DNA from: a virus
Virus record (IMG/VR): IMGVR_UViG_3300042922_000850
Span: 64,001-128,000 of that record
Reading direction: 5' to 3' (one strand)
DNA length: 64,000 nucleotides
Shown piece by piece: positions 2,206-60,411 of the stretch. The notes under the pieces are model-generated. The model searched no databases. It was not told the origin of the DNA and worked only from the letters and a program-made list of their open reading frames with translations. A program made the translations under genes and the position numbers. Position 1 is the first letter of the stretch; the number at the start of each line of letters is the position of its first letter.

Positions 2206-2220
2206 GTATAAGTAAGAAAA
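2206..2220 (+). promoter_or_regulatory. class I promoter-like motif GTATAAGTAAGAAAA
   Basis: One of about 35 copies found at transcription-unit starts. Confidence 0.7.
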
Positions 2221-2270
2221 GAGGGAATAATATTATTCCCTCTTTTCTAAATAATCATGGGAGGAATGTT

Positions 2271-2429
2271 ATGTATGTAGAAATGGAACGTAAAAGAAAG
2301 AGGCGCAAAAAAATACTGCGAATTACATTTAATATTATCGGTGTAACTGTCGTGTGTTTGTTTGTCGCTGTCGTCGTTGTTGGCGCAATTTATGTAGCGG
2401 ATATATTTACAAACCAAGGAGGATATTAG
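2271..2429 (+). CDS. small membrane protein (52 aa, not in ORF track)
   Basis: GGAGG RBS; basic N-terminus followed by a hydrophobic helix. Confidence 0.65.
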   Translation: MYVEMERKRKRRKKILRITFNIIGVTVVCLFVAVVVVGAIYVADIFTNQGGY

Positions 2430-2430
2430 G

Positions 2431-2748
2431 ATGGAAGGGCCGGAAGTTGCTCAAGTTTTTCGTAAAATCGCGAGTGCGCTAGAGAAAGGTGAAATGGTAT
2501 ACAAAATCAATATTACCAGTGATTTTGTATGGCCGGAGAATTGTGTTATCGTTGTGAACAAATCAGAAGATGTTCCTGGAATTGATATAACCTTTAAACA
2601 GATTGAACTATCAACAGAAAAGTATCTGGCAATGAAGCTTATCAGCGATAAAGTGATGCCACTTAATGGCGACACCAAAGTCTGTATTTCAGTCGAATCT
2701 GATGTGTTGCCAGTTGTGTCGGAATTATCAGAATTATTCAAAAATTAG
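2431..2748 (+). CDS. hypothetical protein
   Basis: RBS, operon packing. Confidence 0.65.
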   Translation: MEGPEVAQVFRKIASALEKGEMVYKINITSDFVWPENCVIVVNKSEDVPGIDITFKQIELSTEKYLAMKLISDKVMPLNGDTKVCISVESDVLPVVSELSELFKN

Positions 2749-2762
2749 GGAGGGTTATTAAA

Positions 2763-3776
2763 ATGAAATGTATTAAACCAAGCTTTGAGATTTCAATTCA
2801 ACCGGAGGATCCAAAGGGAGTTCTGCAACACATTGAGAAAGTTGCAAGGGTGTGTTATAAGTCCGAGGGGAATATTACAGAAGATGGCGAGAGCGCAAAG
2901 AAACTTTGCACCAATTTAATTAGTAGGGGCCACGAAGCTATGATCGAACACTCTTCTTACATACTTCGCATGAGTGACACATTTTATAAAATCTGCACAA
3001 ATTATATTACAAACTTCGAAGAACATGGCTATAATTTGTTTCTTCGACGTACGTCAGATGGCAATTCACGCCATATTGTTTCCGGAAACGTAAGAGCGTG
3101 GAGAGATTTTATGAGAGCCGCTATCAATATAACTGGTTCTATACCTCCGTGGCTTAGTGTGTTCTTTACTAATGATGTGGACAAAGTGAATTTGTTCGGA
3201 GATTTACCTTTTGTTCATAGTGGACCACAAGATGACGCATGTTGTGAAAAAGAGGTATATATCATTGGCAAAAACGATCTAGAGACCTTGGTAGAAAAAA
3301 GAGTTCATTATGATATCTCTGTAAAATTTATCGTCGACCGCGGCGTATCTCATGAATTAGTTCGCCACAGAGTTGCTAGTTTCGGACAAGAAAGTACAAG
3401 ATACTGCAACTACAGTAACGATAAATTCGGTAGTAGTATTACCGTAATTGATCTTTTCGGCGGCATTAAATTAGATGCCGCGATGGGGAAATTAACATTG
3501 AGCCAGGTTGCCAGTATTTTGGCTGAATGGGAAGCTGCAATGGAAGATGCGGAGAAACATTATCTCAAAATGATGGAACTCGGTGCAACCGCACAAATTT
3601 CTCGTTCCGTTCTTCCGAACTCAACAAAAACCGAAATTACATTTACATCTAATATAGGTGAGTGGCAACAATTCTTCTCTCTGAGATTACCTGCTACGGC
3701 ACATCCTCAAATGAGAGAGGTAACGAGTGGTTTACATAAGAATTTTGTGGAATTATTTCCAGATTCATTTCAATAA
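2763..3776 (+). CDS. thyX: flavin-dependent thymidylate synthase
   Basis: SHELVRHRVASFGQESTRYCNY ThyX motif, GHEAMIEH, AHPQMRE. Confidence 0.95.
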   Translation: MKCIKPSFEISIQPEDPKGVLQHIEKVARVCYKSEGNITEDGESAKKLCTNLISRGHEAMIEHSSYILRMSDTFYKICTNYITNFEEHGYNLFLRRTSDGNSRHIVSGNVRAWRDFMRAAINITGSIPPWLSVFFTNDVDKVNLFGDLPFVHSGPQDDACCEKEVYIIGKNDLETLVEKRVHYDISVKFIVDRGVSHELVRHRVASFGQESTRYCNYSNDKFGSSITVIDLFGGIKLDAAMGKLTLSQVASILAEWEAAMEDAEKHYLKMMELGATAQISRSVLPNSTKTEITFTSNIGEWQQFFSLRLPATAHPQMREVTSGLHKNFVELFPDSFQ

Positions 3777-3797
3777 CACTGCGCAATTATATTTCCA

Positions 3798-3830
3798 AGA
3801 ATGGCTGTGAGTTCGTTTCACAGCCATTCT
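3798..3830 (+). terminator. hairpin after thyX
   Basis: AGAATGGCTGTGA/TCACAGCCATTCT arms. Confidence 0.6.
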
Positions 3831-3849
3831 ATTTTAAAGGAGAATTGAC

Positions 3850-6786: not shown

Positions 6787-7332
6787 ATGAAACTCAGAAT
6801 AGGTAATGCCTATTTACTTGATGATGATATTTTCTTAAAAGGGACTATTCAAAAGAAAGGGCTTCGAAAAATATTCGTTCCGGATACAGGCATTGGATGC
6901 GGATTTTCTTACCAAGTTATAACAAGAAAATCCATCGGGAAGAATTTGTTTTTTAGCCTAGAAGATATTAAATCAGATGAGCGTTTAAAGAATTTTGAAA
7001 TTGTAACCGCTGAGAATGTTCTTAAAAATAATGCCACGATCGGAGAGCTTGTTTATATTTATGAGCGCCCTCACGGAGGTTGTGAGCGTGAGGAAAACGC
7101 TCATGCAATGTATACCTATTTTAAAGAGAAGTCTAACGATAATACCGTAATGAAAGCATACTTCTCTTTAGAAACTTGGTTATACGGTGACGGGAAAGAC
7201 AAACCCCTTGAAATAAAGTCTGCAATGTTGTGGGGTGGGCTTATGGTAGCACATAAGCATGGAGATATTTCGTGGGACCAAATGAGAGAGATGTATGGTG
7301 AGTATATAAGCAAGGCAATGAATTTAAGATAA
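6787..7332 (+). CDS. hypothetical protein
   Basis: GAGG RBS, ORF. Confidence 0.65.
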   Translation: MKLRIGNAYLLDDDIFLKGTIQKKGLRKIFVPDTGIGCGFSYQVITRKSIGKNLFFSLEDIKSDERLKNFEIVTAENVLKNNATIGELVYIYERPHGGCEREENAHAMYTYFKEKSNDNTVMKAYFSLETWLYGDGKDKPLEIKSAMLWGGLMVAHKHGDISWDQMREMYGEYISKAMNLR

Positions 7333-7337
7333 ATCTG

Positions 7338-7385
7338 GTATAAGTAATAAAAGGAAGATATCGATATCTTCCTTTTATTACTTAT
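7338..7385 (+). promoter_or_regulatory. class I motif embedded in a 46-bp perfect palindrome
   Basis: ATAAGTAATAAAAGGAAGATATC|GATATCTTCCTTTTATTACTTAT (7340-7385). Confidence 0.7.
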
Positions 7386-14185: not shown

Positions 14186-14235
14186 TTTAGAGGGGCAATT
14201 GCCCCTCTAAACTTCCCTTCCATTTCTTGTATAAG
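14186..14235 (+). repeat. cassette-boundary repeat, copy 2
   Basis: 48/50 identical to 13140-13189. Confidence 0.9.
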
Positions 14236-14269
14236 AGATAAAATATAAACAATAAAGGAGGAATTAGTT

Positions 14270-29597: not shown

Positions 29598-29639
29598 AAA
29601 TTTTAGGAATAAAAATATTCTGGTATAAGAAAGAAAAGG

Positions 29640-29711
29640 AAAGCAGTAGCTCAGATGGGAGAGCACCAGTATTAATACTGAGGGTGGCAGGTTCGATACC
29701 TGTCTGCTTTT
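29640..29711 (+). tRNA. tRNA-like RNA or pseudo-tRNA; anticodon undetermined (6-nt loop), no encoded CCA
   Basis: Acceptor AAAGCAG/CTGCTTT; D arm GCTC-AGATGGGA-GAGC; T arm GCAGG-TTCGATA-CCTGT; anticodon arm 16 nt. Confidence 0.8.
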
Positions 29712-29783
29712 GTTTTCATTGTTTTTAAAAAACAATGTATTTCTAGTATAAGGAATAAAACAAAACAAAGGAGGTTCATAAGT

Positions 29784-44366: not shown

Positions 44367-44373
44367 TAATATC

Positions 44374-46098: not shown

Positions 46099-46113
46099 AA
46101 CTAAATATTATTT

Positions 46114-46143
46114 CTTCTGACGGGTAATTTTACCCGTCAGAAG
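46114..46143. terminator. hairpin
   Basis: CTTCTGACGGGTAA-TT-TTACCCGTCAGAAG. Confidence 0.7.
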
Positions 46144-46154
46144 TCGTCATAACC

Positions 46155-46168
46155 GTGCTATAATAAAA
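46155..46168 (+). promoter_or_regulatory. class II extended -10 (GTGCTATAATAAAA)
   Basis: Heads the replication operon. Confidence 0.55.
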
Positions 46169-46199
46169 TCTCATTAAAAGTTAGGAAGGAGAAAGATTT

Positions 46200-46607: not shown

Positions 46608-46623
46608 AAAGGAAACCTCAATT

Positions 46624-47931
46624 ATGAGAAAAATTAAACTGGTAATTCTGCATAATTTTAAGTCTCATGCTCACAGCGAAATTCCATTCGATGATTTTAC
46701 TGCGATAATCGGCCCATCGAATAGTGGCAAGTCAACAGTTTTTAAGGCTATTCGTCTGTGCTTATATAATGAACCATCAGGAGATCGATTCATTACGCAT
46801 GGCGAAAAATTATGTTATGTAGAGGTAAGATTTGATGATAACTCCGGGATACGAAGAACTCGTGGTAAGGATGACCAGGAGATAAACCTCTATGAAATCA
46901 TTCATACAGATGGTAAAGTTGATCCCTATACAAATTTCGGGGCAGGTCCGGTTGCTCCCATTATCGCATTTCATGGTATGCCAAAAGTAAATTTATTTGG
47001 CGAAGAGGAATGTTTGAATATGGCAGACCAATTTTCTGCACCCTTTTTGCTAACCTCGACTTCTGAAAAACGGGCAAAAATGATTGGTAAAATAGCTAAG
47101 ACTGACGTCGCTGACCTTGCTCTCTCAAATCTTAATTCTGAGGTAAGAAATAGAACTGCCTTAAAGAAGAAATATACCAAGGAACTCAAAGAAAAACATG
47201 AATCACTCAAGGAACTAAAGGATTTGCCTTATGCTGAAAGCTTGATAGATTCGCTAGACCTAAAACTTGATAAGGCGAAGAATATCGACAATAGACTAAG
47301 GCGAATTATGGTTATACAAAAAGAATTAGAAGCGCTGACGAAGAAAAAAGACAGTCTCTTTGATTTCATTCAAAAAGAAGCTGACATAAATAATCTGATC
47401 AATCAATTAGATGGGATATTGGCCTTAGACCACAGAATGACAAAGATAATAACCATCCAGAGGAATTTGATAAAGGCTATCGGAGAAAAAGATGCTACGC
47501 AAAGATTAATCGATACCGTAGATATGGATCAGCTTGGCGCTATTTGTATAGATATGGATAAGCTTCTTTCCGTTACTGCAGATGTATTCCATATTCAAAA
47601 GATACAAGAAAAATTAGAGTCAGAGATAAAACGGAAGGGTATCGCAGAAAAAACAATTAAAGATGTTCCAGATGTTGATCTTATTGTCAGTGAATTGGAA
47701 AATTGCCGCTCAACCCTGCTAAGCTTAAACAATATTCTTTCGATTAAGTCAAAACTTGATACAGAAAAGTTAAGGGTACCGAGAGGAAGAGAGGTTATAG
47801 CAAACCTTGAAAAACAATATACTGGTAAATTCGAAATATATAAGCAAGCTCTGATTGATAATAAACAGTGTCCTGTCTGTCAATCAGAAATAACAGAGGA
47901 GAAAGTGGCCGCAATCACAGACTTGATGTAA
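46624..47931 (+). CDS. sbcC: SbcC/Rad50 N-terminal half (Walker A to zinc hook)
   Basis: NFKSH, GPSNSGKS, Q-loop, coiled coil, ends shortly after CPVC. Confidence 0.85.
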   Translation: MRKIKLVILHNFKSHAHSEIPFDDFTAIIGPSNSGKSTVFKAIRLCLYNEPSGDRFITHGEKLCYVEVRFDDNSGIRRTRGKDDQEINLYEIIHTDGKVDPYTNFGAGPVAPIIAFHGMPKVNLFGEEECLNMADQFSAPFLLTSTSEKRAKMIGKIAKTDVADLALSNLNSEVRNRTALKKKYTKELKEKHESLKELKDLPYAESLIDSLDLKLDKAKNIDNRLRRIMVIQKELEALTKKKDSLFDFIQKEADINNLINQLDGILALDHRMTKIITIQRNLIKAIGEKDATQRLIDTVDMDQLGAICIDMDKLLSVTADVFHIQKIQEKLESEIKRKGIAEKTIKDVPDVDLIVSELENCRSTLLSLNNILSIKSKLDTEKLRVPRGREVIANLEKQYTGKFEIYKQALIDNKQCPVCQSEITEEKVAAITDLM

Positions 47932-47943
47932 GGAGGTGGCATA

Positions 47944-50900: not shown

Positions 50901-51501
50901 ATTATATCTAACAGGCCACCCAATCTATGACTATCTTTATTACTCAGAACAATACTCTAATTTTAAGCTATCCGAGTTAGATTACGAGATCGATGAAGAA
51001 ACCGGATTGGTAATTATGAGTACACCAATCCACGGAAGAAAAACAGTAAGGTTTGTTGGAATGTTTAGCAGCATAAAGAAAACCATTACAAGAAAGAATA
51101 AAGAAAAGATGGCTATCGCAGAAGTTGAAGACTTAACCGGTACCGCAAAGATGATGATATGGCCAAATAATTATCTGGCTGTGGAAGACTTATTATCTAC
51201 GGATAAGGTCTACGACTTTACAGGATATATTAAAACAGATCCAGAGGAACCACCGGTCATTGTCCTAACTTCTCTCGAACCACTTGAAATACCAAAAATC
51301 AAGAAGCTCGTTATTCGAGAAAACGACAGGTTTAAACTCAAATCCGTTGTTGATTCCATTCGTTACAACAGACTTTTTAGAGGAGATACTCCGGTATATG
51401 TGGAGTGTGGTAATATCAGGTTGCTGCTTGATAATAAATGCTGGGTAAACTTGGACACAATAGACTTGAGTGAGTGCGAATATCAAATTATTGACAAATA
51501 A
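47944..51501 (+). CDS. dnaE: DNA polymerase III alpha subunit (family C)
   Basis: PHP HLHVH/TDHG, GPGRGSGAGS, FERFL, MPDVDSDF, KMDFLGL, YAFNKSHA, C-terminal OB fold. Confidence 0.97.
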   Translation: MQEEKDRDKFTHLHVHTQGSLADSMLKEIELAKAIKAKGMHAVAITDHGNMFNVIKFYKACKREGIKPIIGMEAYVAPRSNLLKQHKIDDANYHLVLLAENNDGYQNLMSIASDSSINGMYYRPRTDKSKLREWSKGIIALSACLGGEVQQYILEKDYNTAKKVALEYQDIFGVGNFFLELQDHGLPEQKMVNEALLKMSKETNIPLVCTNDCHYLTNGDYEPHDVLMAIQAKTTVDSEKRKKYGSDQFYVKTQEEMEQLFSYIPEALENTVKIAERCNVVIDFHSNKLPPFRLPANFTGTNFEYLMMLTYKGLKKFYGEITPEIKEKAEYEANVVNGMGYVNYFLIVWDFFRFCIEGTDEPGQPSPPGWIPILTGPGRGSGAGSILLYALEITKIDPIRYDLLFERFLDPSRVSMPDVDSDFEYERRQEVIDYVIRKYGRQSVCQIITYGTLAARAAIRAVGKALDLPYSIYDETAKMIPIEPGITIKDALEQNPDLFRKYDNDEIIHRLLNISMRLEGLPTYTSTHAAGVLITDDRGVTAHVPVWANEGAIVSQYDMNILEELGLLKMDFLGLRTLGVIREAMDMIKKNHGVTVDLDQVYQCLDMAPLRLLEEGKTDGIFQLEGGGLTEFVRELKPKSMEEWIAVISLYRPGPMDSIPQYMANRRNPDLIQYPFEVLREVLGETFGVLCYQEQCMKSVIIVSGYDKSDSDGFRKVISKKKKDLIPLHRKWFIDGRNQVDLDEYGKQKDYGHVIPGGITKGQAREALERFFDKMEDFGKYAFNKSHAAAYAVVGYVTAWLKFYYPVEFMAALMNSLAGATKQTKTARYINHCRNSLGIDIVAPDINTSEERFVATEDGKIIFTLNAKNVSATSLQIIKAQRATSKFRDFDDFIRRTLDGVGKQDITAFASIGAFDSLGSISSQITAGAADIADKMSKTKQARARARNSGRAFEIEKWLTLDVAIPYGIKEFPNRVRWALEKEYLGLYLTGHPIYDYLYYSEQYSNFKLSELDYEIDEETGLVIMSTPIHGRKTVRFVGMFSSIKKTITRKNKEKMAIAEVEDLTGTAKMMIWPNNYLAVEDLLSTDKVYDFTGYIKTDPEEPPVIVLTSLEPLEIPKIKKLVIRENDRFKLKSVVDSIRYNRLFRGDTPVYVECGNIRLLLDNKCWVNLDTIDLSECEYQIIDK

Positions 51502-51515
51502 AGGAGGCTATTTAT

Positions 51516-51770
51516 ATGGCGACAATTACAGAAAATGATATCTTAAAAGTAAAAAACGAGGCTCTTGCAATCAGAGACCAGGTGATTTCTGCAAAATCAA
51601 CACTTGAAAACGTAACAACTAATATTAAAAATTATGAGGAAGAATTGAGACAATTAGATGTTGACCCAGATAAGATAGATGAAAAAATTGCCGAGATGTC
51701 AGCACAGCGAGATGAGATTTACACATCTTCCTTACAAACCATAAATGATTGGAAATCAAAAATGGTTTAG
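51516..51770 (+). CDS. small coiled-coil protein, possible middle piece of split SbcC
   Basis: All-helical heptads; gene position. Confidence 0.6.
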   Translation: MATITENDILKVKNEALAIRDQVISAKSTLENVTTNIKNYEEELRQLDVDPDKIDEKIAEMSAQRDEIYTSSLQTINDWKSKMV

Positions 51771-51781
51771 GGGGAAGATGA

Positions 51782-52762
51782 TTGCTCGGTAAACCGTGGA
51801 CAGATGCAGATAAAGACTTCTTAATTAAGTCATACGCTGAAGAAAGTATCGAATACATATCTGATTATCTAGGCAGAAGTAAAAATGCTGTTATGGCCAA
51901 AGCCAGAGAACTTGACTTGAAAAAGATAGTCAAAAAGAATACTTGGACAGAACAAGAGATTTCTTATTTGGTAAAGATGTACCCTAAACAAAGTGCCAAA
52001 TACATCGCTAAGAAATTAGGGCGTGGGGTCGATGCGGTCTTCCGTATGGCACACAAAATGAATTTAACAAAGAAAAGGGGCAGAAAAGCAAAACCCAGAT
52101 GGACACAAGACGAAATATTCTACCTCACAAATTTATATGCAACAAAAGATATTAAAAAGATTGCGGAAAGATTAGGAAGAACGGAATCGGCTGTAATTCA
52201 TAAGGCTTCACAACTTCATTTATTCAGGGAGAAGAATTACAATCGAAACGGTGTTCCTTGGGCAGACTCGGAGTTCGATTATCTGAGAAAACACTATGCA
52301 ACAAAGAATACCGTAACGCTATCCATTGAGATGGATCGCCCAATAAGCACTATTCAGGAGTATGCAGCTAGGATGGGTATACACAAGAAAAGAGCCGCCG
52401 CACCTAAGCCACTTCGAAAAATAAGTCATGGCGGTATAGGGAAGTGGACGGATTGGGAATCGCAATATCTTAGAGAGACGTATGATATATTCCATTGGAA
52501 ACACATGCGTTATGATGCATTGTGTCGTTCTCCCAAGTCAATCAACAAAAGATTAAAAACCATGGGACTATACGAACTACGTGTACGAAGAGTTCGTAGT
52601 TATACGGTAGTTTTTTATTACCGAACAGAAGAAGAACTGAGACAAAAATGGGAATATGTGAATTTTTGGAAAGAGGTGACAAACGATGCTTACCCAGGAT
52701 CAAGAAAAGATGGCTACAGATTTCGAGGCAGCATTGCAGCAGTTGAAAGAGGCTGTAAGTAA
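51782..52762 (+). CDS. protein with five tandem Myb/HTH-like repeats
   Basis: W(T/A)xxE..YL...Y......IA..LGR...AV...A..L repeated five times. Confidence 0.8.
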   Translation: MLGKPWTDADKDFLIKSYAEESIEYISDYLGRSKNAVMAKARELDLKKIVKKNTWTEQEISYLVKMYPKQSAKYIAKKLGRGVDAVFRMAHKMNLTKKRGRKAKPRWTQDEIFYLTNLYATKDIKKIAERLGRTESAVIHKASQLHLFREKNYNRNGVPWADSEFDYLRKHYATKNTVTLSIEMDRPISTIQEYAARMGIHKKRAAAPKPLRKISHGGIGKWTDWESQYLRETYDIFHWKHMRYDALCRSPKSINKRLKTMGLYELRVRRVRSYTVVFYYRTEEELRQKWEYVNFWKEVTNDAYPGSRKDGYRFRGSIAAVERGCK

Positions 52763-53378
52763 AATGCGATTTAGAAAGGAAACTCTTCTAAACGACTCTG
52801 AAAAGTTACAAAAAGACATCGATGATTTAAAGATTGGTGATTATGATAAGGCAGCTATCCTGATGAATAAATTAGCAAACAATCAACGGGCAGCGGCAAG
52901 TGAACAGTTATCTAAATTAGGGACGATGGCGTTACAGTATACTTTTGGCCCTAACTATGAGATGCAAATTGAAATGGCAGGGACTTTGAAAAAGCCTAAA
53001 GCAGACATATGGTTTATTCAAGATGGAAAAGTCGATGAAAGAGAAGATCCGATGGAAGACAATGGTGGTGGCGTTGTCGATATTATTGGTTCCTCCATGC
53101 GCGTAGTGATTATGGATAACTATTCTGATGCTTCAAAAGGAATTCCTTATATTGATGGACCGATCCTATTTGATGAACCCTTCAAGATGGTTAGTAGTGA
53201 ATACATACCTCAAATGAGCGAATTTATTTCTAACGTAGCGAAGGATTTTAACCGACAGGTTATTGCGGTAACCCATAACGATTATCTATCATCTATGACA
53301 GACTCAAACATTTTTATCTCATTGGATGAGAACAAAAGGAGCGTTGTCGTTATACAAAAGAACAAAAAGGAGGAATAA
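52686..53378 (+). CDS. sbcC: SbcC/Rad50 C-terminal half
   Basis: Signature-like NGGG, Walker B ILFDEPF, H-loop AVTH. Confidence 0.85.
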   Translation: MLTQDQEKMATDFEAALQQLKEAVSKMRFRKETLLNDSEKLQKDIDDLKIGDYDKAAILMNKLANNQRAAASEQLSKLGTMALQYTFGPNYEMQIEMAGTLKKPKADIWFIQDGKVDEREDPMEDNGGGVVDIIGSSMRVVIMDNYSDASKGIPYIDGPILFDEPFKMVSSEYIPQMSEFISNVAKDFNRQVIAVTHNDYLSSMTDSNIFISLDENKRSVVVIQKNKKEE

Positions 53379-53660
53379 ATGCCCATGCTATTATTCGGGA
53401 AGAAAGAAAGTGTTTGTGCACCAACCCCAAAGTATCGGACCGAAATTTCCAAATTGGTTGATGAGCGAAAAGCAGTACAAAATGTAATGCGGTTTATCTG
53501 TGATCCGGATTTGTATAATGTTTACCAGGATAAGTTACAGAATATTGATGCGGAACTTGGTTTACTATATAAAAAGGCTCGCACAGAAAACGAAAGGAAT
53601 GATCAGTTGTATGTTGTCACCTCAACTATTAAGCAATATCAAAAAAATCTTTATCAATAA
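53379..53660 (+). CDS. hypothetical protein
   Basis: AAGGAGG RBS. Confidence 0.6.
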   Translation: MPMLLFGKKESVCAPTPKYRTEISKLVDERKAVQNVMRFICDPDLYNVYQDKLQNIDAELGLLYKKARTENERNDQLYVVTSTIKQYQKNLYQ

Positions 53661-54075
53661 AATTGAATTGATGCAACAACGCGATGAATTACGAACCTCC
53701 GTCGCAAATGGAAAAGACTTTTTTTATAAGTACGCAAAGTCTGGTGATGGCAAGCTTCTTGGCGATGGTGCTCAAAGGATGTTGGAGATAATCCAGCGGA
53801 TAGCGGACATTGAGAGTGAAATAAAAAGGATGGATACTCTGATTATTTCAAACCTAGAAATGGAAATTAACCAAGTTAATTTTAAGTTTGTCATCCCGCA
53901 ACACCCAAATGATGCGGGCGATATTATACAAAGCACAGAATATTTTGTAACAAATGAGGATACTTCAAGAGAAAATAGCTTGGATATTAATGATTTATGG
54001 ACTATTATACTTTTGAAGGAGATGTTTGATGTTAAAAACGTTGAGCTAATTCCGAAAGAGAAAGGTGGTGAATAA
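53500..54075 (+). CDS. hypothetical protein; true start probably downstream
   Basis: ORF overlaps the upstream gene. Confidence 0.55.
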   Translation: MIRICIMFTRISYRILMRNLVYYIKRLAQKTKGMISCMLSPQLLSNIKKIFINKIELMQQRDELRTSVANGKDFFYKYAKSGDGKLLGDGAQRMLEIIQRIADIESEIKRMDTLIISNLEMEINQVNFKFVIPQHPNDAGDIIQSTEYFVTNEDTSRENSLDINDLWTIILLKEMFDVKNVELIPKEKGGE

Positions 54076-54328
54076 GATGTTTATTAATTTTTACGATGAG
54101 TTAGAAATGATCGACGAGTTAAAACAGAGAGTTGGCGAACTTGTAGTTTTACACTATGAGTGTGAAGACTGCGGGACCGATCAGGTAACAGATGAGTTAG
54201 AGATAACTTCTGACATGATTGATGATTTACAAGCAGATGGATATTTTATGTGTAGTTGGCCTTGTACTGATTGCGGCGCAAACACTAAGTTTATGAGAAC
54301 AGACATGATGAGGGGAATTGAGTACTAG
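54065..54328 (+). CDS. acidic zinc-ribbon protein
   Basis: CEDC...CTDC. Confidence 0.65.
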   Translation: MVNKMFINFYDELEMIDELKQRVGELVVLHYECEDCGTDQVTDELEITSDMIDDLQADGYFMCSWPCTDCGANTKFMRTDMMRGIEY

Positions 54329-54514
54329 GCATACGGGGGTAAAGTGGAATGTGTATTTTTAAGAAGGTTGCTACTGCTATATTAAAGTTCGTGACAGTAG
54401 TTGTTGTACCAGCTACATATCTTTTAATCAAAGGGTTCGTTGATTCTATGTTCCCGTCTTCTGCACGAGAAATATTTGAAAATTCATAATCTCAAATATT
54501 TCTCGTATAAGAAA

Positions 54515-54670
54515 GGTGAAGCGGGGCAACCCCGCCTGGAAACGATAATATACAGGCTTGTTATATAGTATGTTTGTAAGGTTAGCAAATAAAACAAATA
54601 ACCATATTATCAACGAAATACAAAATATAACTATAATACTAGGCTCTTGGCGGTTTGCCAAGAGCTATTT
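54515..54670 (+). ncRNA. candidate structured small RNA
   Basis: Class I-like motif at 54505, no RBS-led ORF, several stems, terminal hairpin GCTCTTGGC/GCCAAGAGC. Confidence 0.4.
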
Positions 54671-54762
54671 ATTTCATTAAATTTTATGGTATAAGAAAGA
54701 AAAGGTAGAGAAGACACGATTCTCTACCTTTAAATAATTTTATTTAAAGGAGGATAAAAACT

Positions 54763-55701
54763 ATGACTCAAAATTTAGAATCAGTTTTATCATTTTTATT
54801 AAGACCGGCGGTAGAATATAACCTGCCGCAGAAAAAATATTGGGGAACAGTGGTTAAAGAAAATTCAATGTTAGTTGCTTCTGGTAGTTTCACAATTGAA
54901 ATCGGGAACATTCATTTCGACAAAAAGCCAGATGGAGAGTATTTTAGTTTTCTGGAGAGCAAGTTTGCTGAGTTTGCATATCCGCTAAATCCGGCTCAGA
55001 TTCAAGAAAAAGTGAGTTCTCAGTGCAGCTTTGTTGGCAAGGTGGTATTCCCATTAACAAATATTATTAACCGGTTGTCTGATATCGATAAGCAACTCGT
55101 ACCTAATGGCAAGGATTCTATATTGAAACGCTGTAGACTTATCGTGTCTCCTGGGTTTTTAGAATCTGGAGATATGACACTAAAGTTTACAGACAATGGA
55201 AACGGGTGGGAATTCAAACATGCTTCTCTACCAAAACCAGTTCGCCTACACAAAGATTCTGTAATAGGACCTGACGGAATAAGAAAAGATACTGTGTACA
55301 GGTGCGAATTAAAAGATAGCGATGATCTTCTTGTAAATGTAATTGAACCGTATGGAAAAATGAGACTTGGTATTTTATATTCTCCAAAAGGATTTGTACC
55401 GGTGAATTTAGAGGAGATTAACCGAATGAGCGGTAAAATACCACCCGACATGATAATCTGTTCAAATATAATTGAACCGAACCCAATCCCGGCTCCACCA
55501 ATTCATTTAGACGCTAGTACAATGTTCGATTTATTAAATGTATTTTTAATGTGCCAGAACACAGAAAAGATAGAAATGCACTTACCTGATGATCCCAACA
55601 AACCGGTAATGTTTACTAACGTTCCTACGAGTGATGATGATTTAAGAATAAGAGTTGTTGTGGGAACGCTCAACCCGTTCTACGGAGCACAGAGGAGGTA
55701 A
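54763..55701 (+). CDS. putative diverged sliding-clamp (DnaN-like) protein
   Basis: C-terminus IHLDASTMFDLLNVF..EKIEMHL....KPVMF...VVVG resembles beta-clamp domain III. Confidence 0.4.
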   Translation: MTQNLESVLSFLLRPAVEYNLPQKKYWGTVVKENSMLVASGSFTIEIGNIHFDKKPDGEYFSFLESKFAEFAYPLNPAQIQEKVSSQCSFVGKVVFPLTNIINRLSDIDKQLVPNGKDSILKRCRLIVSPGFLESGDMTLKFTDNGNGWEFKHASLPKPVRLHKDSVIGPDGIRKDTVYRCELKDSDDLLVNVIEPYGKMRLGILYSPKGFVPVNLEEINRMSGKIPPDMIICSNIIEPNPIPAPPIHLDASTMFDLLNVFLMCQNTEKIEMHLPDDPNKPVMFTNVPTSDDDLRIRVVVGTLNPFYGAQRR

Positions 55702-55708
55702 TTAGCTA

Positions 55709-56227
55709 GTGTATAGTACTTTTCATGAAAGGTTGGAAGAAGATGCGGATATTGACCTTGAGCACTTCAGTGTCTTGAGGCATACAGGCAAGGAGTTAAT
55801 AGCGCAAGGGGAGAATATCGCCTATCCAATTTTCGCATATGGATGGGACTATCTTCTTTCAAGTACGTTGATTACAATCCATAACAATGACTTCAGGAAG
55901 GAAGTTAAAACAAAGTATCAAGAGGCATTTATTGATGCGGATGACCTGGACTTCATTCCAAGTGTACTAGAAGTCGCAGATGCTATTGATGAATATAATA
56001 TGATTGTTATCCATGATTTTTATAAAAATAATGGATATTCTATCGATGATATTGATGTTATCATTGGAAATTATATTCAAGAGTTCTCATGCTCCATGGA
56101 GGATTGGGTTGAAGAAGTTTTTAGAGATTTTGGATACGCTTATTATGGTTCATCCGTAAGTCGGTGCCACGATATTACGGATGAATATGCTCCACAGAAT
56201 ATACTTCTAGTGGAATTTTTAAGATAG
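55709..56227 (+). CDS. acidic paralog 1 (QN-motif family)
   Basis: APQNILLVEF. Confidence 0.7.
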   Translation: MYSTFHERLEEDADIDLEHFSVLRHTGKELIAQGENIAYPIFAYGWDYLLSSTLITIHNNDFRKEVKTKYQEAFIDADDLDFIPSVLEVADAIDEYNMIVIHDFYKNNGYSIDDIDVIIGNYIQEFSCSMEDWVEEVFRDFGYAYYGSSVSRCHDITDEYAPQNILLVEFLR

Positions 56228-56240
56228 GAGGCACTAATTT

Positions 56241-56885
56241 ATGAACAACCTCGCAATAAAAGGGGACCATTCCTTAGAAACTAGTGACACCCCACGGGTA
56301 TATTTCTATAACAAATATTATAATATGCCGGAAGCATACGACGCGGATACACTATGTAGTATGGTTATTAATCATCCACAGTATACAGAAGATAAGGAGG
56401 AGAACGAGAAGAGAATACTTCAAATCTATAATGATGTAATGGAACAGATGGGTGGCGAAGCTATCCCATCATTTATCGATATTACCGCTTCTGTTTCATC
56501 GTATAATGAAAATATATTTTATAATATAGCTGTTCTTCAAGTAATGGAAAATGGTTCATATTTGGATGTGGACGATATTGAGGAGCTGCTCGAAGAGGAA
56601 ACAACTTCCGTAATGGAGTGGTTTAGTTATAATTTAGAATATTGTAATTTGGATGACTCTATATTTGAACTGTTGCATAGAAATAAATTGTCCTTTTCGG
56701 TGTCTGAAGATGACTCACAATATGAAGATTTAATAAGAGTAGATGAGGTTGTTAGAACTTTGCCAGAAGGCGGAAAAGAATATGACATTATAATTGCTGA
56801 TTGCCAGAACATAATTCTCCCGTGCTTTGGAATTCGTGATTTCTTTTTACAAGACAACCTTATCTTATATAGACCTGGGGAGTGA
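56241..56885 (+). CDS. acidic paralog 2
   Basis: ADCQNIILPCF. Confidence 0.7.
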   Translation: MNNLAIKGDHSLETSDTPRVYFYNKYYNMPEAYDADTLCSMVINHPQYTEDKEENEKRILQIYNDVMEQMGGEAIPSFIDITASVSSYNENIFYNIAVLQVMENGSYLDVDDIEELLEEETTSVMEWFSYNLEYCNLDDSIFELLHRNKLSFSVSEDDSQYEDLIRVDEVVRTLPEGGKEYDIIIADCQNIILPCFGIRDFFLQDNLILYRPGE

Positions 56886-56889
56886 AAAA

Positions 56890-57546
56890 ATGTTTGATTT
56901 AGATTTTGTCAACAAAAGTTTGGGTTTATGCGACGAACCATACATGTCAAACGAAGATTTTCACAATCGGACAGAAGAAATACTAGGTTCGCTATTCTTA
57001 AGATCAAATTGCGTTACAAAAAAGGATTACCGAAAACATTGTGATTACATTTTCAAATCATATGAGATTAACTTTAAAGCTGTGGGTGGGCCGCCAGATA
57101 TTGAAGATATTATTCTTAATATTGAAACTGACAATTGGGAAAAAATGTTGGAACTTGGTAAATTAGATTTATGTTACGGACAAGGGAAACAGGGGTATTT
57201 AAAATTTATCAGCTATCAGGATTTTGAAAAAGACTTTATGGCGGAACAAGCAATTGAGAAATTGGCCGAAATGTGGTATACCGATTATCATTTTGAGGAT
57301 TCTGACGATATGTTCGAATATGTTATGAAAATCTTGAATGAGCACAATTTAGCATACACTTATCCAGAATCTAAATTGATTGAGTATCGCAAGGGTAAAA
57401 GAGAGATTGTTTGCTTCAACGACTGTCAGAATTTATTACTCCCGGAATGGCAGCTCCATATGATTATTTCGCGAGGTGGCAGCCATGAATATACAGCGGA
57501 TGAAATCAAAGCCCTGTTGAGTGTATCTATTATATCAAAAGATTAA
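56890..57546 (+). CDS. acidic paralog 3
   Basis: NDCQNLLLPEW. Confidence 0.7.
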   Translation: MFDLDFVNKSLGLCDEPYMSNEDFHNRTEEILGSLFLRSNCVTKKDYRKHCDYIFKSYEINFKAVGGPPDIEDIILNIETDNWEKMLELGKLDLCYGQGKQGYLKFISYQDFEKDFMAEQAIEKLAEMWYTDYHFEDSDDMFEYVMKILNEHNLAYTYPESKLIEYRKGKREIVCFNDCQNLLLPEWQLHMIISRGGSHEYTADEIKALLSVSIISKD

Positions 57547-57558
57547 GGAGGGAATTGT

Positions 57559-58209
57559 TTGAGCAATGAGATTTCTGTAAAAAACGATTATTCCGAGCAA
57601 TTTGAAAACTTAATGAGTAAGATAGTCTCCTCTTTTGTGGACAAAGAGGAGACTCGTTATAAAGCCCAAGAAAAAATAATCACGGATGCTTATATGGAGG
57701 TCTTAAATTATGGAGGAGATAGTGCGCCCGACTTTTCAGAAATTGTCTTGAATATAGAAGAGCGGAATTCCGATATATTGGCAGAACTAGCTGCTATGGA
57801 TATGGAATGCGGAATGATGTGTCCGGAGCACTCTCATCAAGAACTGACATCATATTTTATGGGGCCGGCAGAAGACGAAGAAGATAATTTGTACTCAGCA
57901 TATTTAAGTGCATGGTATGAAGAATACTCGGCAGAATTTCGTTATGAGCTACCATATTTTATAAGCACAGTTTTGGAAGAATTGGGCTTTTGTTATTTGA
58001 TTAGTGACGAGGCTGATGGGCCTAAAGATTATCAATATGGCTTATCGAATAACTTTGCCATTTATGTTAATGATGCACAAAATTTATTACTACAAGATTG
58101 GCATCTTAAAATACTTGCTGGAGACCGATTAGGTAACTACAGTTATACACAGCAAGATATAGAAAATTTGCTTAACATCAGATTTGATTCAAAACCAGAA
58201 AGGGGGTAA
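57559..58209 (+). CDS. acidic paralog 4
   Basis: NDAQNLLLQDW. Confidence 0.7.
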   Translation: MSNEISVKNDYSEQFENLMSKIVSSFVDKEETRYKAQEKIITDAYMEVLNYGGDSAPDFSEIVLNIEERNSDILAELAAMDMECGMMCPEHSHQELTSYFMGPAEDEEDNLYSAYLSAWYEEYSAEFRYELPYFISTVLEELGFCYLISDEADGPKDYQYGLSNNFAIYVNDAQNLLLQDWHLKILAGDRLGNYSYTQQDIENLLNIRFDSKPERG

Positions 58210-58214
58210 ATAAT

Positions 58215-58844
58215 TTGTATGCTGTTGAAGAATCTAAAGAAACGCAACTATGCAGTTTCTACGAGGGGCGATTAGATGAATTGCTCGATGACATGTTTCT
58301 CGGGGAAAGCTGGATCGAGACACCTGAAGATTGGGAGCGCAAGGAAGAGAAGTTGATGGAAATCTATCAGGAGGTATGGACCAATGAGCTTGTTACAAAA
58401 ACAGCCGTGCCGGAATTATCAGATATTTTAGATGCTGTTTACGATCACAATATGGAAATACAATCAGAAATTGTGGCTCTCGATCTTGAATACGGCCAAT
58501 ATGGTGAACGGTCATTTTATGTAGAAGACTTTTACGACGATAAAGAAGATGCCCAAGAAGCTGTAGAAGAGGCTTGGGAAAACGACCTCAATATAGAGAC
58601 TAATTATATGTACAACACAGATAGTTTGGTATTAAAAATATTGCATAAATTAAAATGCTCTTTCTTGGCAAACGAACAGACATTGCACGAATTCTTTTGT
58701 GAAGACTGGCCAGAGGGGTGTGATGCAGTAGTTGGTGATTGCCAGAATTTATTGCTTCCAGAATGGCATTTAGCGTCAATGCAAGAATATGAACACTCTG
58801 TGACAGACGAAGAAAGAATATTGGTACAATTGGTATCGAGGTGA
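58215..58844 (+). CDS. acidic paralog 5
   Basis: GDCQNLLLPEW. Confidence 0.7.
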   Translation: MYAVEESKETQLCSFYEGRLDELLDDMFLGESWIETPEDWERKEEKLMEIYQEVWTNELVTKTAVPELSDILDAVYDHNMEIQSEIVALDLEYGQYGERSFYVEDFYDDKEDAQEAVEEAWENDLNIETNYMYNTDSLVLKILHKLKCSFLANEQTLHEFFCEDWPEGCDAVVGDCQNLLLPEWHLASMQEYEHSVTDEERILVQLVSR

Positions 58845-58848
58845 CGAC

Positions 58849-59214
58849 ATGAGTTATTTTTTAATACCGGACTACGGGACTCTTAATATAGGCTGTCCGT
58901 CAGGAGAAGATATATTAATCTATATGTACCGGGCTTACATGGATTGTTGCAAGCCGCATAAGGTATTTGGTTATCTCTCCGATACAGCGCCAAGTTTATT
59001 TGAGTTTTATGATAGTCTGACAGACCAAGTGCACTCATCAGATCGCAGAACATTTTTATTCCGAGGGATTGCATTAAACCGGGGAGAGCTAAGCGATCCA
59101 TATTTTGTGGAGATGCTTTTAAAAGACTTCCTGTTTCAATATACGAGAGATGATGGGATTGAGGGATGCGATTGCCAAAATATAATACTACAGGAGATGG
59201 TTGAAGATGAGTAG
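58849..59214 (+). CDS. acidic paralog 6
   Basis: CDCQNIILQEM. Confidence 0.7.
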   Translation: MSYFLIPDYGTLNIGCPSGEDILIYMYRAYMDCCKPHKVFGYLSDTAPSLFEFYDSLTDQVHSSDRRTFLFRGIALNRGELSDPYFVEMLLKDFLFQYTRDDGIEGCDCQNIILQEMVEDE

Positions 59215-59518
59215 AGAAAGCAAGATAATCGAGGAGAAGATACTCTCAGAATACTTCAAGATTATAAGTGAAGGATTTGTTCCTCAAACAAAAGCTTTAA
59301 GAGAAAAGGTAAAGTACCGTATGGATGTAGAATGTTTTGATCTTATATACGGTCAAACATTTGAAGACGAGATAACGGAAAACGCAATACACGATGTTCT
59401 GTCGCTTTATAAGCATGTGCATTATCATGACGGAAAGCGGTTTTTCGAATGTCAAAACCCATTATTTTTCGAGTGGTTTTCTTATCAGAAAATTCTACTG
59501 CTAACACAAAATCCTTAA
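59207..59518 (+). CDS. paralog 7
   Basis: FDLIYGQ; FECQNPLFFEW. Confidence 0.7.
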   Translation: MSRESKIIEEKILSEYFKIISEGFVPQTKALREKVKYRMDVECFDLIYGQTFEDEITENAIHDVLSLYKHVHYHDGKRFFECQNPLFFEWFSYQKILLLTQNP

Positions 59519-59545
59519 TTATAAATGAGAGAGGATATATAGACT

Positions 59546-60286
59546 ATGATTAATACAAAATATCAAGCAGTAGAATGTTTTACGTTTTTGCAAAAGATTT
59601 GCTCCAGAAATGGATGTGAGGAATGTGAGGAGAAGTCATGCGGAGTTTTGTTTGTCGGCCAACACGCTTACTCTGCTACTGCCAATATTGTTGGGAGAAT
59701 AGGTGTTAATGATAATCTTCCGATGGACAATCCAATTTTCTGGAGCTACGGCAGGGAGGGAGAAATTAATCGCCCAAGCCAAGATAAGTTTCTACTAAAC
59801 ACGAAGGGATACATTAAAAATAATCCATCCATGGGAGCATTTTTAAGCAGCGGTTTTATAGATCGCTTTGATCATTACTTGAACAAAGCTCCTGCGAATG
59901 ATTTCCGTATTCGCAGGAAAGATCTATTGGATCACTTAGACAGTCAAGGCTTAAGTTCGGCAAAACAAAACAAAATGAAAATACAAATTGGCTCAGCATT
60001 AACGGACGTGACATTTAATGCTGAGCCAATTAAATGGACAAAGGCAATGGATAGTCCATTTTCATTTGAGTTGCCTCGCTTTGTATACCCTGGTACATAT
60101 CAAAAAAGCAATATCGATAAAAACGTGGTCTGTTCTATCAATTTGCTATCTTTCTATGAAATTATTGCAAATGGGTTTACAGAGTATGAAATTATCCGTA
60201 TTAAATACGACAACGCTGGCCCTGTTGTTATCGAGGGAAAAGCAAGAAATAAAAGTGAGGTTTTCTTTGCTGTATCTCAAATATGA
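59546..60286 (+). CDS. second putative diverged sliding-clamp-like protein
   Basis: FRIRRKDLLDHL; SINLLSFYEII...IRIKYDNAGPVVI...FFAV. Confidence 0.35.
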   Translation: MINTKYQAVECFTFLQKICSRNGCEECEEKSCGVLFVGQHAYSATANIVGRIGVNDNLPMDNPIFWSYGREGEINRPSQDKFLLNTKGYIKNNPSMGAFLSSGFIDRFDHYLNKAPANDFRIRRKDLLDHLDSQGLSSAKQNKMKIQIGSALTDVTFNAEPIKWTKAMDSPFSFELPRFVYPGTYQKSNIDKNVVCSINLLSFYEIIANGFTEYEIIRIKYDNAGPVVIEGKARNKSEVFFAVSQI

Positions 60287-60303
60287 TAACATAAAATTCT
60301 ATC

Positions 60304-60411
60304 GTATAAGTAACAAAACAGGGAGAGTATAGGATAAAGTGGGCTAAAAAATAAAGTCACTTCCTATATTTTTACTCTTTAAAAGTGCCATAACAAAGTG
60401 GTATAATAAAA
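60304..60411 (+). promoter_or_regulatory. tandem class I (60304) and class II (GTGGTATAATAAAA, 60398) motifs
   Basis: Upstream of the primase gene. Confidence 0.55.

What the first reader, a model, noticed from the sequence alone, without database searches (positions are those of the whole stretch)
2206..60318. Phage-specific promoter-like motif GTATAAG-N3-(T/G)AAAA, 35 copies, all on the + strand
Seen at 2206, 7338, 13183, 14229, 21149, 21493, 21834, 22272, 22628, 22991, 23585, 24881, 25178, 25445, 25742, 26390, 26619, 26892, 27179, 27573, 29623, 29746, 30057, 30334, 31653, 32041, 32303, 32743, 33632, 33853, 34577, 44374, 54505, 54689 and 60304, always at unit starts. It resembles a sigmaA -10 but has G in place of the near-invariant last T, a fixed downstream A4 block and no evident -35. 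Inference: it is read by a phage-encoded RNA polymerase or sigma factor encoded outside this window.
Basis: partly seen in the sequence, partly recalled or inferred. Interest (0 to 1): 0.7.

Follow-up and report, generated by a model that had tools for sequence, protein, structure and literature searches.

The report
Private promoter of phage polymerase
A 22-base signal repeated 44 times on one strand of this 167-kb uncultured phage is a real promoter for its early and replication genes, and it is most likely read by the phage's own bacterial-type RNA polymerase with a phage sigma factor rather than by the host enzyme.

Summary
All 35 listed sites exist. 27 fit the stated pattern exactly (0.02 expected by chance) and 8 are one-base variants. 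Genome-wide there are 44 sites, all on the + strand, 43 of them intergenic. The full motif is TTTTCTnGTATAAGwAAkAAAA.

The start site must lie in the A block. A tRNA begins 16 nt after the first G of GTATAAG, and in relatives the ribosome-binding site follows directly. GTATAAG is therefore a -10-like box with G where housekeeping sigmas need T.

Outside the window the phage encodes a single-chain beta-beta' RNA polymerase (2301 aa) next to the portal gene. It also encodes two sigma factors.

An IMG/VR scan with the motif alone found two contigs with several copies. Both carry the same fused polymerase at 43-44% identity.

The TATAAG core also recurs, strand-specifically, in Salmonella phage Arash and Vibrio phage D69. 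All five genomes share one divergent sigma family. In Arash that sigma and the polymerase were detected in purified virions.

Best reading: an early/middle promoter class read by the phage holoenzyme, probably injected with the DNA. No transcript data could be obtained.

An earlier follow-up in this scan reached the same reading on neighbouring DNA of this genome.

The parts
2199..2220 (+). class I promoter; next start codon 2271
   Evidence: PWM 34.7 bits; strong hairpins both before and after
7331..7352 (+). class I promoter; next start 7403
   Evidence: PWM 28.6 bits
13176..13197 (+). class I promoter; next start 13220
   Evidence: PWM 34.2 bits; upstream terminator-like hairpin
14222..14243 (+). 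class I promoter; next start 14270 (transglutaminase-like)
   Evidence: PWM 28.3 bits
21142..21163 (+). class I promoter; first of a dense array of one-gene units; next start 21187
   Evidence: PWM 30.0 bits
21486..21507 (+). class I promoter; next start 21528
   Evidence: PWM 34.2 bits
21827..21848 (+). class I promoter; next start 21871
   Evidence: PWM 33.4 bits
22265..22286 (+). class I promoter, CTATAAG variant; next start 22317
   Evidence: PWM 29.0 bits
22621..22642 (+). class I promoter, CTATAAG variant; next start 22665
   Evidence: PWM 34.1 bits
22984..23005 (+). class I promoter; next start 23032
   Evidence: PWM 28.7 bits
23578..23599 (+). class I promoter, CTATAAG variant; next start 23625
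   Evidence: PWM 33.6 bits
24874..24895 (+). class I promoter; next start 24954
   Evidence: PWM 35.8 bits
25171..25192 (+). class I promoter; next start 25216
   Evidence: PWM 33.2 bits
25438..25459 (+). class I promoter, GTACAAG variant; next start 25486
   Evidence: PWM 31.3 bits
25735..25756 (+). class I promoter; next start 25802
   Evidence: PWM 31.5 bits
26383..26404 (+). class I promoter, GTACAAG variant; next start 26427
   Evidence: PWM 34.0 bits
26612..26633 (+). class I promoter; next start 26656
   Evidence: PWM 30.6 bits
26885..26906 (+). class I promoter; next start 26933
   Evidence: PWM 33.5 bits
27172..27193 (+). class I promoter; next start 27218
   Evidence: PWM 30.3 bits
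27566..27587 (+). class I promoter; next start 27629
   Evidence: PWM 27.5 bits
29616..29637 (+). class I promoter abutting the tRNA gene
   Evidence: PWM 33.0 bits; tRNA starts 16 nt after the first G, which bounds the start site
29639..29712 (+). tRNA-Ile (anticodon AAT) transcribed from the promoter at 29623
   Evidence: ARAGORN
29739..29760 (+). class I promoter; next start 29784
   Evidence: PWM 31.0 bits
30050..30071 (+). class I promoter; next start 30094
   Evidence: PWM 33.6 bits
30327..30348 (+). class I promoter; next start 30376
   Evidence: PWM 36.4 bits
31646..31667 (+). class I promoter; next start 31690
   Evidence: PWM 35.8 bits
32034..32055 (+). class I promoter; next start 32109
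   Evidence: PWM 31.8 bits
32296..32317 (+). class I promoter; next start 32347
   Evidence: PWM 30.0 bits
32736..32757 (+). class I promoter; next start 32893
   Evidence: PWM 32.5 bits
33625..33646 (+). class I promoter (AAACAAAA variant); next start 33668
   Evidence: PWM 33.7 bits
33846..33867 (+). class I promoter; next start 33965
   Evidence: PWM 31.9 bits
34570..34591 (+). class I promoter heading the long replication operon; next start 34699
   Evidence: PWM 30.5 bits
44367..44388 (+). class I promoter inside the replication module, before the genes leading to Pol III alpha; next start 44442
   Evidence: PWM 27.3 bits; Pol III alpha at 47944-51501
54498..54519 (+). degenerate copy: GTATAAG without the A block; doubtful as a working promoter
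   Evidence: PWM 13.7 bits
54682..54703 (+). class I promoter; next start 54763
   Evidence: PWM 29.5 bits
60297..60318 (+). class I promoter (TAACAAAA variant) before the 1070-aa Toprim/primase-like gene at 60442; a plain TATAAT box lies between it and the gene
   Evidence: PWM 25.7 bits; Toprim hits; TATAAT at genome 124402

Best explanation
The motif is the promoter of the phage's non-structural genes on the + strand. These are many small one-gene units, nucleotide-metabolism and replication genes, one tRNA and one sigma gene.

GTATAAG acts as the -10 element, with G at the position where housekeeping sigmas require T. Transcription starts about 7 nt downstream, inside the conserved A block. 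A T-rich TTTTCT element just upstream and a weak TTTTA about 22 nt upstream add affinity. There is no canonical -35.

This is the single-chain beta-beta' polymerase (genome 25094-31999, - strand) bound to the divergent sigma encoded among the structural genes (genome 154055-154945, - strand).

Both proteins are made late, from plain TATAAT promoters, alongside portal and tail genes. They are probably packed into the capsid and injected. The motif-bearing genes would then be switched on at once and without the host enzyme.

Shown: the motif, its positions, the bound on the start site, the genes, and the co-occurrence across five genomes. Inferred: which enzyme reads it, and its delivery with the virion.
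For: **Statistics and placement**
- 44 sites on the + strand and none on the - strand.
- 43 of 44 are intergenic.
- The modal distance to the start codon is 35-45 nt.

**Bound on the start site**
- The tRNA begins 16 nt after the first G.
- In G001 the GGAGG follows the A block directly, with ATG 26 nt after the first G.
- In D69 and Arash, GGAGG lies 6 nt after TATAAG.
- Sequence upstream of the motif is not conserved between genomes, and in G000 it is often a terminator hairpin. The motif itself must therefore be the promoter.

**Class discrimination.** On the + strand, TATAAG...KAAAA occurs 39 times and TATAAT...KAAAA 0 times. A-11 and T-7 of the sigma70 -10 element are the flipped, pocket-bound bases (PMC7598289).

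**Reader candidates**
- The fused polymerase has an intact NADFDGD motif. Its best solved relatives are Firmicutes beta and beta'.
- A profile of the divergent sigma family hits SigA structures at 1.5e-9.

**Co-occurrence**
- A scan of 2.9 million IMG/VR contigs with the motif alone gave two contigs with multiple copies.
- Both encode the fused polymerase at 43-44% identity. Their motif counts are 29/0 and 8/0 by strand, and in both the polymerase gene lies on the strand opposite to the motif.
- Arash has GGTATAAG 36/4 by strand. D69 has GTTATAAG 18/1.
- The divergent sigma family is present in all five genomes, always on the strand opposite the motif.
- The canonical sigma is found only in G000, with a distant one in Arash.

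**Virion link**
- In Arash, the beta subunit Gp206 was the protein with most spectra in virion preparations. Beta' Gp216 and sigma Gp10 were also detected (PMC10585845).
- Gp10 is the homologue of the divergent sigma.
- Portal-then-polymerase synteny is shared with Arash. So is hydrolase-then-sigma synteny.

**Complex prediction** of the divergent sigma with polymerase residues 1100-1780 gave weak support.
- The score was 0.59, against 0.00 for the best of 3 controls.
- The pass mark was reached by 58 of 80 solved complexes and 2 of 110 mismatched pairs. At 0.60 or under, only 7 of those 80 passed, as did both passing mismatches.
- The runs agree in at least 72% of contacts, and the partner pLDDT is at least 71.
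- Sigma-beta' complexes are solved, so the pass may only reflect likeness.
Against: - No transcript ends, RNA-seq or biochemistry are available.
- The Arash virion list has 116 proteins, including metabolic enzymes. Its authors allow carry-over from the lysate.
- The polymerase lacks the N-terminal cargo tag seen on five other - strand proteins, so packaging in this phage is unproven.
- The canonical sigma gene sits behind a motif copy at genome 49408. That would also fit an auto-activating loop.
- No alpha subunit was found, so how the core assembles is unknown.
- Nothing excludes that the divergent sigma works with the host core.
Confidence: 0.62

Rival explanations
1. The canonical sigma (201 aa, regions 2 and 4, sigmaF-like; genome 49545-50150) reads the motif with host or phage core. 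Because it sits behind a motif copy, it would amplify its own synthesis.
For: It is a clear sigma70-family protein and its best solved relative is sigmaF at 2.4e-24. Its gene lies 137 nt after a 25-bit motif copy.
Against: No homologue was found in G001, which is complete and has 29 motif copies, nor in D69, nor in the incomplete fragment G002.
Confidence: 0.1
2. The divergent sigma redirects the host core polymerase to the motif. The phage polymerase serves another class of genes.
For: Phage sigmas that appropriate the host core are the common case (established knowledge: T4 gp55, SPO1 gp28). The sigma family co-occurs with the motif.
Against: The polymerase co-occurs just as strictly. It is abundant in Arash virion preparations together with the sigma. 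The predicted contact with the phage beta' part has weak support only.
Confidence: 0.12
3. Host sigmaA holoenzyme reads the motif unaided, as an unusually uniform strong early promoter like those of T4 or T5.
For: TATAA matches five of six -10 positions. Early genes of most phages use the host enzyme. Arash and about half of the G001 sites have TG two bases before TATAAG, like an extended -10.
Against: G replaces T-7 in 44 of 44 sites here and in all sites of four other phages. Meanwhile the same genome uses exact TATAAT elsewhere. There is no canonical -35. The same core is kept across phages of 35-53% GC whose hosts include Salmonella and Vibrio.
Confidence: 0.08
4. The motif is not a promoter. 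It is an RNA-level signal (processing site or translation enhancer) or the operator of a DNA-binding regulator.
For: The A-rich block lies in what would be the 5' leader. Several sites are followed by a hairpin.
Against: Eighteen sites lie directly after strong terminator-like hairpins. One abuts a tRNA. No other conserved promoter-like element lies upstream. Orientation always follows the downstream gene.
Confidence: 0.03

Closest known systems
Early promoters of the virion RNA polymerases of jumbo phages phiKZ and AR9 (review PMC7598289)
   Same: Both are a roughly 10-nt, AT-rich, highly conserved motif centred near -10. Both can be found bioinformatically upstream of early operons, and both belong to a phage that encodes a multisubunit-type polymerase found in virions.
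   Different: The phiKZ and AR9 enzymes are split and highly divergent, and have no sigma-family factor. Here the enzyme is one bacterial-type beta-beta' chain (Pfam E-values down to 1e-63) accompanied by sigma70-family proteins. The motif also keeps the TATAA of a bacterial -10 box.
Single-element promoters of phage sigma factors: T4 late TATAAATA (gp55) and phiEco32 gp36 promoters (from my own knowledge; not checked here)
   Same: Both are a -10-only element with little or no -35, read through a phage-encoded sigma-like factor. Both are highly uniform across the genome.
   Different: Those factors use the host core. Here a phage core polymerase co-occurs with the motif. The sequence differs (G at the last -10 position plus an A-block start region), and this class drives early and replication genes, not late ones.
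Bacterial housekeeping sigma -10 element T-12 A T A A T-7
   Same: TATAA is shared and the distance to the inferred start site is the same. A TG two bases upstream occurs in Arash and about half of the G001 sites.
   Different: T-7, one of the two flipped bases, is G in every site. A fixed A block and a TTTTCT element are added. There is no TTGACA.
RNAP-encoding Caudovirales (mReC) of Weinheimer and Aylward 2020, PMC7481178
   Same: Both are tailed phages from metagenomes with beta and beta' that cellular-RNAP HMMs detect.
   Different: That paper does not mention promoters or sigma factors (0 occurrences of either word). Its capsid marker PF07068 was not found here, so membership in that clade is not established.

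Membership tests
Housekeeping sigma70/sigmaA promoter | -10 hexamer TATAAT with T at -7 | tested here: not met
   G at that position in 44 of 44 sites. On the + strand TATAAT...KAAAA occurs 0 times against 39 for TATAAG.
Housekeeping sigma70/sigmaA promoter | -35 hexamer TTGACA about 17 bp upstream | tested here: not met
   Only a weak TTTTA lies at the corresponding place.
Housekeeping sigma70/sigmaA promoter | A at -11, and a start site about 7 nt after the hexamer | tested here: met
   A is invariant. The start site is bounded by the tRNA and Shine-Dalgarno positions. This is a bound, not a mapped end.
Virion-RNA-polymerase early promoter (phiKZ/AR9/N4 type) | Conserved motif upstream of early operons only | tested here: met
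   The motif lies only before non-structural + strand genes. It is absent from structural, portal, terminase and polymerase genes. That the motif-bearing genes are early is itself inferred from their functions.
Virion-RNA-polymerase early promoter (phiKZ/AR9/N4 type) | Polymerase present in the virion and injected | not testable with these tools
   Only by analogy: Arash Gp206, Gp216 and Gp10 were detected in virion preparations, and the polymerase gene sits next to the portal gene.
Virion-RNA-polymerase early promoter (phiKZ/AR9/N4 type) | Early transcription independent of the host polymerase and of new protein synthesis | not testable with these tools
   This needs rifampicin and chloramphenicol experiments.
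Sigma70 family (for the 296-aa divergent sigma) | Regions 2, 3 and 4 recognisable by sequence | tested here: met
   The family profile hits 41 PDB chains, nearly all sigma factors, best at 1.5e-9. In some hits the match spans regions 2 to 4. The single sequence gets only a sub-threshold region-3 Pfam hit.
T7-type single-subunit polymerase promoter | A T7-like polymerase gene (PF00940) in the genome | tested here: inconclusive
   No match, but the control genomes were also silent.
mReC clade (PMC7481178) | T4-type capsid protein PF07068 | tested here: not met
   No match at E <= 1.

The most novel reading that the evidence does not exclude
A widespread lineage of tailed phages carries a complete, portable, bacterial-type transcription system. 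It consists of a single-chain beta-beta' core, its own sigma family and a -10 box whose last base is G. The holoenzyme is injected with the DNA. Early genes therefore run independently of the host enzyme in hosts as far apart as Clostridia-like bacteria, Vibrio and Salmonella. If so, it would be a natural orthogonal sigma/-10 pair built on the T-7 pocket.
Probability: 0.45. Interest if true: 0.72.

Novelty: new variant of a known kind. Interest (0 to 1): 0.55.

Why it matters
Phage-private promoters are known for T7, N4, phiKZ and AR9. All of those enzymes are either single-subunit or very far from the bacterial enzyme.

Here the core is plainly bacterial in type, fused into one chain, and paired with a sigma-family factor. 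The promoter differs from the host -10 consensus mainly at T-7, one of the two bases that sigma flips into a pocket.

That gives a simple test of how a sigma can retune the T-7 pocket. It also offers a compact orthogonal expression system.

It supplies the first promoter model that I could find for the cellular-like RNAP-encoding phages. For these, the papers in the library (PMC7481178, PMC10585845) report none.

It also explains the layout of this window. Twenty-seven one-gene cassettes in 13.5 kb each carry their own promoter and mostly their own terminator.

Tried and rejected
- **Megablast against GenBank phages.** Window 44000-64000 found nothing.
- **Other polymerase-encoding phages.** The exact heptamer GTATAAG is not enriched or strand-biased in Yersinia phage YerA41, Cobetia phage Carin-5 or E. 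coli phage IME392. It is at most mildly strand-biased in Rhizobium phage TM30 (22/4 against control 19/12). The motif therefore belongs to one lineage, not to every RNAP-encoding phage.
- **Partial IMG/VR relatives.** L023 and L024 cover mostly the polymerase side and gave no informative promoters.
- **Literature.** Searches for the motif and for promoter work on such phages returned primers and unrelated papers.
- **GTATA as a sigmaF-type -35 box.** I considered this and rejected it. The -10 box and start site would then fall beyond the ribosome-binding site, and inside the tRNA.
- **The A block as the -10 box.** Rejected for the same reason.
- **First complex job.** I resent it without that row, as the tool's own note advises.
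- **Cargo tag on the polymerase.** The N-terminal tag MDK(I/V)A.YE..IYK.A is on five - strand proteins but not on the polymerase. In the divergent sigma family, K10 and A12 are invariant in 12 sequences. That fits the K-x-A site proposed elsewhere in this scan, but I did not test that code.

Full report
**1. The observation**

The stated pattern GTATAAG-N3-(T/G)AAAA occurs 27 times in the window, always on the + strand. Shuffles expect 0.02. The bare heptamer occurs 32 times on + and 2 on -.

- CTATAAG, three times.
- GTACAAG, twice.
- C in place of T/G before the A block, twice.
- One copy at 54505 that lacks the A block.

Aligning all 35 sites shows a longer signal, TTTTCTnGTATAAGwAAkAAAAnAA.

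The window is bases 64001-128000 of a 166,758-bp IMG/VR virus record. I built a weight matrix from the 35 sites and scanned the whole record.
- It finds 44 sites on the + strand and none on the - strand.
- The scores are cleanly bimodal: 41 sites at 25 bits or more and three at 13-17 bits.

**2. Placement**

- 43 of the 44 sites are intergenic. The exception lies in an ORF that is probably spurious.
- In 24 of 44 a Shine-Dalgarno sequence and start codon follow, with the start codon 35-45 nt after the first G.
- 18 sites lie just downstream of a strong hairpin with a T-rich tail, that is, after the terminator of the preceding unit.
- Between window 21149 and 34591 there are 27 sites in 13.5 kb, so nearly every small gene is its own unit.
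- The long replication operon has only two strong sites, at 34577 and 44374. It includes Pol III alpha at 47944-51501.

**3. Where transcription must start**

- The site at 29623 is followed by a tRNA-Ile gene that begins 16 nt after the first G.
- In the relative G001 the GGAGG follows the A block directly, and ATG can lie 26 nt after the first G.
- In Vibrio phage D69 and Salmonella phage Arash, GGAGG can lie only 6 nt after TATAAG.
- Sequence upstream of the motif is not conserved between genomes, and in G000 it is often a terminator hairpin.

The motif itself must therefore be the promoter. TATAAG takes the place of the -10 hexamer, and the start falls about 7 nt later, inside the A block. 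This is a bound from anatomy, not a mapped end.

**4. What distinguishes it from a host promoter**

The hexamer is TATAAG in all sites. In sigma70-type promoters, A-11 and T-7 are the two bases flipped into sigma pockets (PMC7598289).

The genome also uses exact TATAAT boxes, some with an extended-10 TG and one with TTGACA 18 bp upstream. These lie 20-40 nt before the starts of - strand genes: the polymerase operon, structural genes and the 1173-aa ORF. A few + strand genes have them too.

The A block is coupled only to the G form. On the + strand, TATAAG...KAAAA occurs 39 times and TATAAT...KAAAA never.

There is no TTGACA. A weak TTTTA lies 22-18 nt before the first G, and it persists in the 26 sites that have no upstream hairpin.

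**5. Candidate readers, all outside the window**

*The polymerase.* A 2301-aa ORF at genome 25094-31999 (- strand) carries the beta domains followed by the beta' domains.
- Pfam hits: Rpb2_6 at 1.2e-63, Rpb1_2 at 2.4e-33, Rpb1_5 at 2.4e-30.
- The NADFDGD motif is intact at residue 1526.
- Its best solved relatives are Firmicutes beta' and beta.
- The gene directly upstream in the same operon is the portal gene. The terminase gene lies nearby.
- No alpha subunit and no T7-type polymerase were found. The control genomes were also silent in the T7-type search.

*Two sigma-family genes.*
- A 201-aa protein at 49545-50150 (+). It has regions 2 and 4 and is closest to sigmaF. It lies behind a motif copy at 49408.
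- A 296-aa protein at 154055-154945 (-), among tail and lysis genes. On its own it gets only a weak region-3 hit. Its family profile, however, hits SigA structures at 1.5e-9.

**6. Comparative test**

I scanned 2.9 million IMG/VR contigs for the motif alone. This gave 68 stretches of DNA. Only two contigs had several copies: G001 (168 kb, 46% GC) and G002 (a 102-kb fragment, 35% GC).
- Both encode the fused polymerase at 43-44% identity. They share almost no nucleotide similarity with this genome.
- Motif counts by strand are 29/0 in G001 and 8/0 in G002. In both, the polymerase gene lies on the opposite strand.
- The invariant part across the three genomes is GTATAAGnnA(T/G)AAAA. TTTTCT is kept in G002 but not in G001.

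A tblastn search with the polymerase found cultured relatives.
- In Salmonella phage Arash (53% GC), GTATAAG occurs 36 times on one strand and 4 on the other. Its consensus is tGGTATAAGtaaaGTGTAaac, followed by a ribosome-binding site.
- In Vibrio phage D69, unbiased k-mer enrichment in upstream regions gave GTTATAAG, 18 against 1 by strand.
- TATAAGwAA is thus shared by all five genomes.

The divergent sigma family is found in all five, always on the strand opposite to the motif. The 201-aa sigma has no homologue in G001, G002 or D69.

Other lineages of polymerase-encoding phages (YerA41, Carin-5, IME392) do not show the heptamer bias.

**7. Link to the virion**

In Arash, mass spectrometry of purified particles found:
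- the beta subunit Gp206, the protein with the most spectra;
- beta' Gp216;
- sigma Gp10.

The authors note possible carry-over from the lysate, since 116 proteins were listed (PMC10585845). Gp10 is the homologue of the 296-aa sigma.

Two gene orders are shared between Arash and this phage: portal then polymerase, and cell-wall hydrolase then sigma.

In the sigma family, K10 and A12 are invariant. This would fit the K-x-A capsid-protease site proposed in another report of this scan, but I did not test that code. The polymerase lacks the cargo tag seen on five other proteins.

A complex prediction of the sigma with polymerase residues 1100-1780 gave weak support.
- The score was 0.59, against 0.00 for the best control.
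- The pass mark was reached by 58 of 80 solved complexes and 2 of 110 mismatches. At 0.60 or under, only 7 of the 80 passed, as did both passing mismatches.
- The runs agree in at least 72% of contacts, and the partner pLDDT is at least 71.
- Because sigma-beta' complexes are solved, this shows likeness rather than binding.

**8. Model**

- Late in infection, plain TATAAT promoters drive the portal, polymerase, divergent sigma and structural genes.
- Polymerase and sigma are probably packed and injected.
- On entry, the holoenzyme reads the 40-odd TATAAG promoters. This switches on small takeover-type genes, nucleotide metabolism, replication, a tRNA and the 201-aa sigma.
- That second sigma, or the host sigmaA, would then serve the TATAAT class.

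Confidence by step:
- It is a promoter: about 0.95.
- It is read by a phage-encoded factor: about 0.85.
- That factor is the divergent sigma on the phage core: about 0.6.
- The holoenzyme is delivered in the virion: about 0.5.

**9. Comparison and novelty**

The system works like the early promoters of virion polymerases (phiKZ, AR9, N4) and like the single-element promoters of phage sigmas (T4 gp55, phiEco32 gp36; these two are from memory). It differs in pairing a clearly bacterial-type, single-chain core with a sigma-family factor, and in a -10 box changed at T-7.

I found no paper describing promoters for such phages. I do not file the phage under the mReC clade, because its capsid marker was not found.

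An earlier follow-up of this scan (e1-5739495) reached the same reading for eight copies in the neighbouring window. I re-derived it independently here and added:
- the bound on the start site;
- the motif-only recovery of G001 and G002;
- the D69 variant;
- the distinction between the two sigmas.

Noticed in passing
window 2221-2250, 7353-7380, 25757-25780, 33868-33900, 44389-44420, 54704-54740: In about ten units a GC-rich hairpin followed by a T run begins right after the A block, so the transcript would start with a terminator-like stem-loop. This could be a 5' stabiliser, an attenuator, or a terminator for the preceding unit placed after the next promoter.
   Followed up: partly
window 29639-29712: tRNA-Ile with the unusual anticodon AAT, abutting a promoter so that its leader can be at most a few nucleotides long.
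   Followed up: no
genome-wide; in the window at 15586-ish, 20518-20593, 24843, 31586, 46159, 60402: A second promoter class: plain TATAAT(A/T)A boxes 20-40 nt before start codons, some with an extended-10 TG. It lies mainly before - strand genes, including the polymerase, the divergent sigma and the structural genes. In Vibrio phage D69 the corresponding structural-strand motif is TAAAATAT (17 against 2 by strand).
   Followed up: partly
genome 49545-50150 (outside the window; L011:13545-14150): A sigmaF/G-like 201-aa sigma factor behind a class I promoter. It is absent from the relatives G001, G002 and D69. It is a candidate late-switch factor or a sporulation-sigma mimic, and it hints at an endospore-forming Firmicutes host.
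   Followed up: partly
window 16952-20473 (-): A 1173-aa ORF with no Pfam or PHROG match. Three TATAAT boxes set in repeated GGACA/TGTCC palindromes precede it at window 20518-20593, which looks like an operator-controlled promoter.
   Followed up: no
window 20640-21060 and genome 13130-13530: Three 53-57-bp blocks at 88-98% identity are shared between the two places where coding switches from the - strand to the + strand. They may be duplicated divergent control regions or origins.
   Followed up: partly
genome 48621, 50395, 53913, 87892 (window 23892-24809), 94582 (window 30582-31547), all on the - strand: Five - strand proteins begin with the same tag, MDK(I/V)A.YE..IYK.A. One of them is an SNF2 helicase. 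This tag was reported elsewhere in the scan as a capsid cargo tag.
   Followed up: no
window 54498-54519: A degenerate promoter copy (GTATAAG without the A block) lies 184 nt before the working copy at 54689, followed by a GC-rich hairpin. It may be a decayed duplicate.
   Followed up: no
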